From an uncultured Planctomycetota bacterium (GTDB lineage Bacteria > Planctomycetota > Planctomycetia > Gemmatales > Gemmataceae), in assembly GCA_963784995.1 (NCBI GenBank), contig CAWATZ010000006.1, forward strand, positions 136,853 to 200,852: DNA of 64,000 nt, given 5' to 3'. Positions 35,571 through 36,854 of the stretch are shown piece after piece. The position numbers and the translations under genes are program-made. The notes beneath the pieces are model-generated. The model saw only the letters and a program-made list of their open reading frames with translations. It made no database searches and was not told the origin of the DNA. Position 1 is the stretch's first letter, and every line of letters starts with the position of its first letter.

Positions 35571-36854
35571 GTGATTGCACTCAAGCCGAAACTCGCCCCC
35601 GCATTCCTGCTGGCGGCCAGCCTGACCGGCGCCGGCGTCCTCGGTCAGCGGCCGGCCGCCGAGGACAAACCGACTCCCGAAGCCCTGGCGACCCGGGTCG
35701 ATCGCTGCGTGCAAGCCTGGCAGCCGACCAGGGAAGAGCGGCGTCTGGACCTGATCGGCTGGGCCAGCGACCTGCGCCAGGCCCTGAAGCTGGCCAAAGA
35801 ACACAACCGGCCCATCTTCCTGTTCACCTACAGCGGCTCGGCGAGCCGCGAACACGCCATGGCGCTGCAGCGCTGCTGAGGCGGCGCGGCGGCCATGAGA
35901 GCGAGTTCGCTCTCCAGCTCCAGGGTCATCGACCTGCTCAACCAGTATTTCGTCCCCGTCCACGTCGATGGCGTCTACTACCAGAACAACGCAACCGTGC
36001 CGGCCGAGGAGAAGGCCGCGTATCAGCACGTCTTTCAGGAACTGCAGCAGCTCAATCAGAAAAACAAAGCCGCGGGCAAGCCCCTGCTCTCGGTCGGCTC
36101 GGTGCATGCCTACGTCCTGGCCCCGGACGGCAAGCCGCTGGCTTCGCTCACCGTCAGCGAGGCCAAGCCGGAGCGCGTCGCGACCATGCTGGAGCAAACC
36201 ATTCAGACGCTGAAGGTGGCCAAAGGGAAGCCGGTGGTCAAGCCGGGCCCGCAATCGGGCGCTCCCAGGGTCGGGGCCGATTCCCTGCTCCTGCATCTGA
36301 CCGCCCGCTATCTGGTGCCGAAAAACCAGCCCGGCGCCCGCAAGGACGTCGAGGACGACCTCGTGCCCCTCCTAGCCGAGCTGGGCAGCGAAAACTCGGG
36401 CCAGTGGAGTGCCTTGCCCTCGGAGGACTGGATCGAGCTGAAGAAAGAGGAGTGGCTGAAACTGCTGCCGACCGGCAAGGTCGGCGTCGGCAGCTCCTGG
36501 GAGCCGGACCGGGAAGTGGTTGGTGCGCTCTTGACGCGCTTTTATCCGACCACCGAGAACAACGATCTCTCGACCAACCGGATTGACCAGCAGTCCCTCA
36601 AGGCCACCGTGGTCTCGGTCAAGGACGGCAAAATGCGAGCCCGCCTGGAGGGCCGCCTGACGATGAAACACACGTTCTATCCGCGCCGGGAAGACAAGAA
36701 CATCGTGTCAGCGACCCTTGTGGGCTACGTCGAGTTTGAGCTGGGCAAGCAGCGGATTCACGCGCTCAGGCTGGTGACGGACAGGGCCACCTATGGGGGT
36801 GAGTCGCGACATTTCGGCGTGGCGGTGCGGTCGCTGCCGGGGGGCTCGGAGTAG
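35571..36854 (+). CDS. secreted thioredoxin-fold protein with C-terminal domain of unknown function; reading frame interrupted only by an in-frame TGA at 35877..35879 (possible selenocysteine or nonsense mutation)
   Basis: ORFs 35571..35879 and 35895..36854 are in the same frame (both coordinates are 0 mod 3). They are separated by a single TGA: ...KEHNRPIFLFTYSGSASREHAMALQRC*GGAAAMRASSLSSSRVIDLLNQYFVPVHVD. N-terminal signal peptide. The pattern FLFTYSGS...VIDLLNQYFVPV resembles thioredoxin_7/DUF255-type folds. Confidence 0.5.

What the first reader, a model, noticed from the sequence alone, without database searches (positions are those of the whole stretch)
35877..35914. In-frame TGA in a secreted thioredoxin-fold gene followed by a 7-bp-stem hairpin: candidate selenocysteine codon (or a nonsense allele)
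ORFs 35571..35879 and 35895..36854 share a frame and are split only by TGA (...AMALQRC-TGA-GGAAAMRASSLSSSRVIDLLNQYFVPVHVD). The TGA lies in the region where thioredoxin-like folds carry their redox motif, next to a Cys (C-U). About 17 nt downstream is gagagcg-agtt-cgctctc, the distance and size expected for a bacterial SECIS apical stem-loop with a GU-containing loop.

Against this, the pair is C-U rather than CxxU, and it lies about 12 residues later than canonical. The window also has many sequence-level lesions. It is a hypothesis only.
Basis: inference. Interest (0 to 1): 0.5.

Follow-up and report, generated by a model that had tools for sequence, protein, structure and literature searches.

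The report
Conserved selenocysteine codon, uncatalogued thioredoxin-fold protein
The in-frame TGA is almost certainly a real selenocysteine codon with its own recoding hairpin, in a secreted thioredoxin-fold protein family found in at least five bacterial phyla that databases cut in two and call "hypothetical protein".

Summary
TGA 35877-35879 joins ORFs 35571..35879 and 35895..36854 in one frame, and a 7-bp/4-nt hairpin lies at 35897-35914. The selenocysteine reading is strongly supported; the nonsense-allele alternative is rejected.

- All 32 stand-alone orthologues recovered from GTDB genomes, from five phyla, have TGA at the same codon in the motif (G)R-C-U-G-G-A. Protein sequence is conserved on both sides.
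- 125 of the best 150 cluster representatives matched by the N-terminal part end exactly at that codon.
- The hairpin is conserved and fits the published bacterial SECIS model. It shows two compensatory changes and strong synonymous-codon constraint.
- Paralogues without TGA lack the hairpin. They carry Cys (TGT), Gly or Leu at that position.
- An AlphaFold model of a homologue puts the Sec position at the N-cap of helix α1 of one DsbH/DUF255-like thioredoxin domain that spans the TGA. A β-rich C-terminal domain with no PDB match follows.

The family matches no NCBIfam or Pfam model above threshold. Its only weak similarity is to the VPGUxxT thioredoxin-like selenoproteins. It is absent from a 2026 list of 119 prokaryotic selenoprotein families.

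Not shown: Sec machinery in this genome (none in the window) and the protein's biochemical function.

The parts
35571..36854 (+). Complete selenoprotein gene: 427 codons plus stop, read through TGA 35877. GTG start at 35571, with AAGGAG about 12 nt upstream.
   Evidence: The same frame is conserved in protein sequence across phyla on both sides of the TGA.
35571..35660 (+). Probable signal peptide (MIALKPKLAPAFLLAASLTGAGVLGQ...). The cleavage site was not determined.
   Evidence: Sequence features only. An extracytoplasmic location is also suggested by paralogues in which this domain follows a transmembrane segment after an ECF sigma factor. Inference.
35700..36230 (+). Thioredoxin-fold (DsbH/DUF255-like) domain that spans the TGA. 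Boundaries are approximate.
35874..35879 (+). Cys-Sec dyad: TGC (Cys) at 35874-35876 and TGA (Sec) at 35877-35879, within the motif R-C-U-G-G-A.
   Evidence: TGA in 32/32 stand-alone orthologues. The preceding residue is Cys in 31 and Gln in 1. 118 of 125 truncated cluster representatives end in RC.
35897..35914 (+). Bacterial SECIS apical hairpin: 7-bp stem GAGAGCG/CGCUCUC and loop AGUU.
   Evidence: It is absent from non-Sec homologues.
36231..36851 (+). C-terminal beta-rich domain of unknown function, with conserved motifs LHLTARY, P(S/A)EDW, FYPxTENND..NRI, GxLxMKHxFY and FGVAVRS.
   Evidence: No Pfam family and no significant PDB fold match.

Best explanation
TGA 35877-35879 is a selenocysteine codon. 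During translation the hairpin at 35897-35914 acts as a bacterial SECIS element. It would bind SelB carrying Sec-tRNA(Sec), so that UGA is decoded as Sec and one 427-residue precursor is made from 35571..36854. The protein is exported. It consists of a DsbH/DUF255-like thioredoxin-fold domain followed by a beta-rich domain with no match to a solved structure. Sec sits at the N-cap of helix alpha1, where thioredoxin-fold enzymes place their attacking Cys, and the adjacent Cys probably resolves it through a vicinal selenenylsulfide. The most likely activity is periplasmic redox chemistry (thiol/selenol oxidoreductase or peroxidase-like), with the C-terminal domain holding the substrate or partner. 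What is shown: conservation of the TGA, the SECIS signature, the Sec/Cys pairs and the fold. What is inferred: SelB dependence, export, the selenenylsulfide and the enzymatic activity.
For: (1) TGA is at the identical codon in 32 of 32 stand-alone orthologues with N-terminal coverage. They come from Planctomycetota, Verrucomicrobiota, Acidobacteriota, Armatimonadota and Omnitrophota MAGs, and protein sequence is conserved on both sides. The 33rd locus, L019, is an ECF-sigma-fused paralogue without TGA.
(2) Nearly all of about 400-500 database homologues are called as 275-321-residue C-terminal pieces. 125 of the best 150 cluster representatives (clusters at 50% identity) matched by the N-terminal 68 residues end exactly at R[C/T/Q/S], the codon before the TGA.
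(3) The hairpin is conserved, with 95% of cells paired and two compensatory pairs: A-U to C-G in L008 and G-C to A-U in L034. All copies fit the bSECIS model given in PMC13188914 (Fig. 2 legend): loop of 4-6 nt, G in the first two loop positions followed by G/U, 24 nt spacing. MFE is -7.2 to -11.1 kcal/mol, and only L025 at -7.2 misses the -7.5 limit.
(4) Synonymous sites are constrained. The Arg inside the stem is AGA/AGG in 29/32, while the Arg two codons before the TGA is CGN in 32/32. Leu is CTC in 31/31 and Ser is TCG in 21/21.
(5) Homologues without TGA keep the peptide R-A-x-x-L-S but use other codons and have no hairpin (L039, L040, L041, L019).
(6) Sec/Cys pairs: TGC-TGT in P0303 and P0300, and S-C in P0166.
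(7) In L009, L015 and L020 the Met that gene callers use as the downstream start is Ile (ATC), so the downstream part cannot start there.
(8) In the AF2 model of P0111 (48% identical to the window protein), beta1 lies upstream of the Sec position and alpha1 downstream, within one thioredoxin domain. The Sec-equivalent residue 90 is the N-cap of helix 91-98.
(9) TGA is the ordinary stop in this window, ending 33 of 42 called ORFs. The target is the only TGA with coding composition on both sides.
(10) Gemmata obscuriglobus and Isosphaera pallida are reported to have full Sec-insertion gene sets (PMC4807772).
Against: No selA, selB, selD or tRNA-Sec was found in the 64-kb window or within 3 kb of the gene in 37 related loci. 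Sec competence of this genome is therefore unverified. Covariation is thin, two compensatory events, because the stem is nearly invariant. Most Sec-less homologues have Gly or Leu rather than Cys at the position, which is unusual for a selenoprotein family. There is no experimental evidence of selenium incorporation, and the catalytic function is pure inference.
Confidence: 0.93

Rival explanations
1. Nonsense allele or pseudogene: the TGA is a lesion that truncates a thioredoxin-like gene in this genome.
For: A single in-frame stop in a single sequence. One sensor-kinase gene does look split: CHASE3 at 4694-5020 and HATPase at 5825-7177.
Against: The same TGA occurs in 32/32 orthologues from five phyla and in at least 125 cluster representatives. 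Protein sequence is conserved downstream. The hairpin in the window is identical to the most common form.
Confidence: 0.01
2. Two separate genes: a small secreted N-terminal protein ending at TGA, and a 319-residue protein started at ATG 35895.
For: Gene callers annotate it this way everywhere. An ATG lies 5 codons after the TGA in many loci.
Against: That Met is Ile (ATC) in L009, L015 and L020, and Leu or Val elsewhere. No ribosome-binding site can be fitted in the 15-nt gap. Residues between TGA and ATG (G-G-A) are invariant. One thioredoxin domain spans the junction. Sec-less paralogues are continuous polypeptides.
Confidence: 0.02
3. SECIS-independent read-through or reassignment: UGA is decoded by a near-cognate or suppressor tRNA as Trp, Cys or Gly rather than as Sec.
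For: Sec machinery was not seen in the window. Many Sec-less paralogues have Gly at this position.
Against: TGA is the main stop codon in the window. The hairpin has the bSECIS loop signature and correct spacing, and it co-occurs strictly with TGA. Cys homologues exist. The carriers belong to lineages with no known UGA reassignment (own knowledge).
Confidence: 0.03
4. The hairpin is only a by-product of the conserved peptide R-A-S-S-L-S and plays no RNA-level role.
For: The stem lies wholly inside conserved codons. The single-sequence fold is not significant, z = -1.83.
Against: Codon choice is fixed at synonymous sites only inside the stem. Rare AGA/AGG codons are used there, against CGN for the Arg two codons before the TGA. 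Paralogues with the same peptide but no TGA use other codons and do not fold. There are two compensatory changes.
Confidence: 0.02

Closest known systems
VPGUxxT family thioredoxin-like (seleno)proteins, types 1 and 2 (NCBIfam NF041382/NF041383; 'hypothetical protein OS_HP5')
   Same: About 350-residue thioredoxin-like selenoproteins with one Sec near the N-terminal end of the thioredoxin domain. 9 of 17 family members match NF041382 and 8 of 17 match NF041383, both weakly, over the segment just before the Sec (best E 2e-4). This suggests distant common ancestry.
   Different: Scores of about 13 bits against cut-offs of 350. The motif is G-R-C-U-G-G-A, not V-P-G-U-x-x-T. No VPGUxxT sequence was available here for direct alignment.
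Thioredox_DsbH / DUF255 domain (Pfam PF03190; structures 7tkv, 3ira, DsbH 2ju5) and AGR2/AGR3
   Different: Below Pfam's gathering score (19.2 against 27). C-x-x-C is replaced by C-U-G-G-A with a longer beta1-alpha1 loop. A different C-terminal partner domain.
Mammalian thioredoxin reductase C-terminal Gly-Cys-Sec-Gly redox centre (own knowledge), and bacterial 'CU' selenoprotein families listed in PMC13188914 Table 1 (SaoC, SaoL, HgcA, MbdU, KCU-star)
   Same: Adjacent Cys-Sec flanked by Gly, which could form a vicinal selenenylsulfide.
   Different: Here the dyad is internal, at the thioredoxin-fold active-site position, not on a flexible C-terminal tail and not in a metal- or organometal-handling protein. 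There is no sequence homology. The Cys is replaced by Gln, Thr or Ser in a few members.
GPx/Prx-type U-x-x-T/S thioredoxin-fold selenoproteins
   Different: No sequence similarity to GPx or Prx signatures. A resolving Cys at -1.

Membership tests
Bacterial selenoprotein gene (Sec-UGA plus bSECIS) | In-frame UGA conserved at the same codon among orthologues, with coding conservation on both sides | tested here: met
   32/32 stand-alone orthologues. 125/150 cluster representatives are truncated exactly there.
Bacterial selenoprotein gene (Sec-UGA plus bSECIS) | bSECIS model: apical loop 3-9 nt, upper stem 4-16 bp, G in the first two loop positions, 16-37 nt between UGA and the loop, MFE <= -7.5 kcal/mol (PMC13188914 Fig. 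2 legend) | tested here: met
   Window: 7-bp stem, loop AGUU, 24 nt spacing, -10.7 kcal/mol. All 33 copies have a G[G/U]-containing loop and MFE of -7.2 to -11.1; only L025 at -7.2 misses the limit. bSECISearch itself was not run.
Bacterial selenoprotein gene (Sec-UGA plus bSECIS) | Homologues with Cys at the Sec position | tested here: met
   TGT in L039/P0303 and L040/P0300, and S-C in P0166. Most other Sec-less homologues have Gly or Leu.
Bacterial selenoprotein gene (Sec-UGA plus bSECIS) | selA, selB, selD and tRNA-Sec present in the same genome | not testable with these tools
   None in the 64-kb window or in locus flanks. The rest of the genome is not available. Gemmata obscuriglobus and Isosphaera pallida are reported as Sec-competent (PMC4807772).
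Bacterial selenoprotein gene (Sec-UGA plus bSECIS) | Selenium shown in the protein | not testable with these tools
   Needs 75Se labelling or mass spectrometry.
Thioredoxin fold, DsbH/DUF255-like | Pfam PF03190 at or above the gathering score | tested here: not met
   19.2 bits against 27.
Thioredoxin fold, DsbH/DUF255-like | Three-dimensional thioredoxin fold with the redox residue at the N-terminus of alpha1 | tested here: met
Thioredoxin fold, DsbH/DUF255-like | C-x-x-C motif | tested here: not met
   The motif is C-U-G-G-A, with no Cys at +3.
VPGUxxT thioredoxin-like selenoprotein (NF041382/NF041383) | HMM score at or above the curated cut-off (350 bits) | tested here: not met
   13 bits for the window protein. 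9/17 and 8/17 members give only weak hits, best E 2e-4.
VPGUxxT thioredoxin-like selenoprotein (NF041382/NF041383) | V-P-G-U-x-x-T motif | tested here: not met
   G-R-C-U-G-G-A in all members.

The most novel reading that the evidence does not exclude
This is a selenoprotein family that has not been catalogued. It is secreted, present in at least five phyla, common in soil and freshwater Planctomycetota, Verrucomicrobiota, Acidobacteriota and Armatimonadota, and carries a vicinal Cys-Sec centre at the thioredoxin active-site position. Its Sec-less paralogues serve as the extracytoplasmic domain of ECF sigma factor-transmembrane fusion proteins. Together these would point to an unrecognised envelope redox or sensing module, one that current annotation splits in half everywhere.
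Probability: 0.55. Interest if true: 0.6.

Novelty: new member of a known kind. Interest (0 to 1): 0.5.

Why it matters
The recoding mechanism is the standard bacterial one, so nothing about Sec decoding changes. Three things do matter.

- Public annotation cuts several hundred genes from at least five phyla into two "hypothetical proteins". A curated HMM that includes the TGA would repair all of them.
- The family adds a widespread aerobic soil and freshwater selenoprotein to a catalogue dominated by anaerobe and marine families. It implies Sec use in many Gemmataceae, Pirellulales, Chthonomonadaceae, Bryobacteraceae and Verrucomicrobiales MAGs.
- A Cys-Sec dyad at the thioredoxin active-site position, together with Sec-less copies of the same two-domain module on ECF sigma factors, gives a defined starting point for finding the substrate or signal.

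Tried and rejected
- ARAGORN called a 95-nt 'tRNA-Gly(tcc)' at 41255-41349(-), which I briefly considered as a tRNA-Sec-like gene. It lies inside the 928-residue ORF 39669-42452(-) and Rfam does not support it, so I treat it as a false positive.
- I looked for Sec machinery in the window with a Pfam scan of 40 of the 42 called ORFs, plus one further ORF (34583-35452) that the composition filter had dropped. Nothing was found.
- I looked for tRNA-Sec next to the gene in 37 loci. None was found.
- I looked for a conserved operon partner by all-against-all BLAST of flank ORFs. There is no universal neighbour, only a recurrent DUF1549/DUF1553 plus DUF1501 pair in some loci.
- The read-through protein could not be handed to the representative search or to structure prediction, because it is not an exact window sequence and contains a stop. 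I used the N-terminal 68 residues, and the Ser-containing homologue P0111, instead.
- The afdb50 fold library was unavailable.
- DNA for P0177 could not be fetched.
- P0111 first looked like a 'Ser homologue'. It is a single TGA-to-TCA change in one MAG with most of the SECIS still present, so it is a recent loss or an error rather than a Sec/Ser pair.
- Literature checks of deep-Sep, BSepDB, the Olavius symbiont paper and the ISME J 2016 survey found no description of this family.

Full report
**1. The observation**

TGA lies at 35877-35879. ORF 35571..35879 has a GTG start with AAGGAG about 12 nt upstream, and 102 codons with a signal-peptide-like N-terminus. ORF 35895..36854 has 319 codons. 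The two are in the same frame and only this TGA separates them.

The hairpin GAGAGCG-AGUU-CGCUCUC occupies 35897-35914 and is part of the minimum-free-energy fold. Taken alone, the local fold is only marginally better than shuffled sequence: z = -1.83, and 9 of 200 shuffles fold as well. The single-sequence observation therefore proves nothing by itself.

The window is 65.5% GC and TGA is its ordinary stop, ending 33 of 42 composition-called ORFs. A scan of every in-frame TGA for coding-type GC3 periodicity on both sides returned one site only, the target.

**2. Comparative evidence for the codon**

A search with the read-through protein found 398 homologues. Almost all are 275-321 residues long and cover only the part downstream of the TGA. 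A second search with P0111 showed the same pattern.

DNA of 37 loci from GTDB species genomes was fetched. Of the 33 loci with upstream sequence, 32 have TGA at exactly the same codon, in the motif (G)R-C-U-G-G-A. Protein sequence is conserved on both sides: WQPTxxERRxDxIGWA...RPxFLFT...GRC upstream, and GGAxxMRAxxLSNxxVIxLLNxxFVPV downstream. The carriers are deposited as Gemmataceae, Pirellulales and other Planctomycetota, Verrucomicrobiales and Akkermansiaceae, Bryobacteraceae and Terriglobia, Chthonomonadaceae and other Armatimonadota, and one Omnitrophota MAG. One Akkermansiaceae MAG has two copies, both with TGA (L027, L029).

The single exception, L019, is not an orthologue. It is an ECF-sigma-fused paralogue.

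The N-terminal 68 residues were searched against 1.84 billion cluster representatives and gave 200 hits. Of the best 150, 125 end exactly at R[C/T/Q/S], with 118 ending in RC. They are cut at the codon before the TGA.

In L009, L015 and L020 the Met that gene callers use as the downstream start is Ile (ATC). The downstream part therefore cannot be an independent gene.

**3. The hairpin is a SECIS element**

In an ungapped alignment of 33 TGA-containing genes, the 7-bp stem is paired in 95% of cells. Sliding the 3' partner by one to three columns gives 36-67%. There are two compensatory changes: A-U to C-G in L008, and G-C to A-U in L034. There are also 11 A-U to G-U changes.

Every copy fits the published bacterial SECIS model: loop 3-9 nt, stem 4-16 bp, G in the first two loop positions usually followed by G/U, 16-37 nt between UGA and loop, and MFE <= -7.5 kcal/mol (PMC13188914).
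- The loops are AGUU (15), GGUC (11), GUGU (3), GGGU (2), GGGC (1) and GGUU (1).
- The spacing is 24 nt.
- The hairpin MFE ranges from -7.2 to -11.1 kcal/mol. Only L025, at -7.2, misses the limit.

Synonymous sites show the RNA constraint directly.
- The Arg codon in the stem is AGA/AGG in 29 of 32 sequences. The Arg two codons before the TGA is CGN in 32 of 32.
- The stem Leu is CTC in 31 of 31, while two Leu codons a few positions downstream use four or five different codons.
- The stem Ser is TCG in 21 of 21.

The control is decisive. Homologues without TGA (L039, L040, L041, L019) keep the peptide R-A-x-x-L-S but encode it with CGC/CGT, GCC, CTG and AGC. They have no hairpin at that place.

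**4. Sec/Cys pairs and other replacements**

| Homologue | Residues or codons at the C-U position |
|---|---|
| P0303, P0300 | TGC-TGT (Cys-Cys) |
| P0166 | Ser-Cys |
| P0161, P0177, P0187, P0173, P0251, P0334, L019 | Cys-Gly |
| P0209, P0169 | Cys-Leu |
| P0194 | Thr-Asp |

P0111 has TGC-TCA, one base from TGA, with most of the hairpin still present. Its nearest relatives (85% identical) are truncated forms. It is therefore a recent loss or an error in one MAG.

Nearly all Sec-less forms are C-terminal domains of proteins of about 600-680 residues. These begin with ECF sigma-factor regions 2 and 4 and a hydrophobic segment.

**5. The protein**

Pfam gives only a sub-threshold Thioredox_DsbH/DUF255 match that spans the TGA. 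An AlphaFold2 model was made of P0111, which is 48% identical to the window protein, using a 53-sequence alignment. It is confident: pLDDT 89.8, pTM 0.86.

In the model, beta1 (VFLFTH) is followed by a loop. The Cys and the Sec-equivalent residue 90 come immediately before helix 91-98, and beta2 (VPVYLS) follows. This is the beta1-alpha1-beta2 layout of a thioredoxin fold, with the Sec at the N-cap of alpha1. One domain therefore needs sequence from both sides of the TGA.

The C-terminal part of about 200 residues is made of long antiparallel strands. It has no significant PDB match and no Pfam family.

The window subgroup has six extra residues in the beta1-alpha1 loop.

**6. Mechanism**

The UGA/SECIS signature, the Sec/Cys pairs and the fold are shown. 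Four things are inferred:
- SelB with Sec-tRNA(Sec) recodes the UGA.
- The product is exported. The signal-peptide-like N-terminus supports this, as does the position of the paralogous domain after a membrane segment.
- Sec is the attacking residue and the adjacent Cys resolves it as a vicinal selenenylsulfide, as in the Gly-Cys-Sec-Gly centre of mammalian thioredoxin reductase (own knowledge). The Cys is Gln, Thr or Ser in about 6% of members, so it is helpful rather than essential.
- The C-terminal domain binds a substrate or partner.

I could not verify Sec machinery. There is none in the window and none beside the gene in 37 loci. The literature reports full Sec-insertion gene sets in Gemmata obscuriglobus and Isosphaera pallida (PMC4807772).

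**7. Comparison with what is known**

NCBIfam release 20 gives only a 13-bit hit to NF041382, against a cut-off of 350. That model is the VPGUxxT thioredoxin-like (seleno)protein, type 1. 9 of 17 members hit type 1 weakly and 8 of 17 hit type 2, with best E of 2e-4, over the stretch just before the Sec. This points to a distant relative, not a member.

The 2026 inventory of 119 prokaryotic selenoprotein families lists nothing with this motif and domain combination (PMC13188914 Table 1). The deep-Sep and BSepDB papers do not mention it either. NCBI and JGI records call the pieces 'hypothetical protein', and no full-length Sec-containing entry appeared in any search.

I therefore class it as a new family of a well-known kind, the bacterial thioredoxin-fold selenoproteins with a canonical SECIS. 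One caveat applies: specialised databases could not be queried.

**8. Verdict**

The Sec interpretation is supported (confidence 0.93) and the nonsense allele is rejected. Interest is moderate. The recoding mechanism is ordinary. The family, however, is widespread, systematically mis-annotated, carries an unusual Cys-Sec centre at the thioredoxin active site, and has Sec-less sensor-domain paralogues on ECF sigma factors.

Noticed in passing
window 30723-33119 (+): A 799-residue ORF is a clear Major Vault Protein homologue (MVP_shoulder 1.4e-43, Vault repeat domains 8e-32, 7e-28 and 1e-18). This is unusual in a bacterial, Gemmataceae-like window.
   Followed up: no
P0161, P0166, P0177, P0187, P0300, P0310, P0334, P0337; loci L019, L040, L041: Sec-less paralogues of the whole two-domain module form the C-terminal, presumably extracytoplasmic, part of ECF sigma factor fusion proteins of about 600-680 residues (Sigma70_r2/r4 plus a hydrophobic segment). 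The Sec position holds Cys, Gly, Leu or Asp.
   Followed up: partly
L002 2-2632, L003, L008 1650-3677, L015, L018, L019 3815-5233, L041: In several loci the selenoprotein gene or its sigma-fused paralogue lies next to the planctomycete gene pair DUF1549/DUF1553 (PSCyt2/PSD1) and DUF1501. These pairs are abundant in such genomes, so the link may be chance. The window has no such neighbour.
   Followed up: partly
window 2231-2275 (-): Rfam match to Acido-Lenti-1 sRNA (40.1 bits, gathering score 37, E 1.3e-5). It lies inside the long composition-called ORF 481-3006(-), which has no Pfam match.
   Followed up: no
window 41255-41349 (-): ARAGORN calls a 95-nt 'tRNA-Gly(tcc)' inside the 928-residue ORF 39669-42452(-). 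Rfam does not support it, so it is probably a false positive.
   Followed up: yes
window 33733-34728 (-) and 34583-35452 (-): Two paralogous ORFs directly upstream and divergent from the selenoprotein gene have no Pfam match. They share a C-terminal motif LPVLADALE(D/E)AGC...HCR...H.RGCW.VDLL.
   Followed up: no
window 4694-5020 (+) and 5825-7177 (+): A CHASE3 fragment of 109 residues, and a protein that begins directly with an HATPase_c domain followed by receiver and Hpt domains, are separated by about 800 nt.
   Followed up: no
window 36708-38147 (-): The longest ORF of the convergent alpha/beta-hydrolase gene (BD-FAE/Abhydrolase_3) overlaps the last 147 nt of the selenoprotein gene. Pfam matches stop about 98 residues before its stop codon, and the tail is Arg/Pro-rich. 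The real 3' end may be earlier, or the stop may have been lost.
   Followed up: no
L038 (P0111, GCA_009772375.1): A single MAG has TCA (Ser) in place of TGA, with most of the SECIS hairpin intact. This is a recent Sec loss or a sequencing error.
   Followed up: yes
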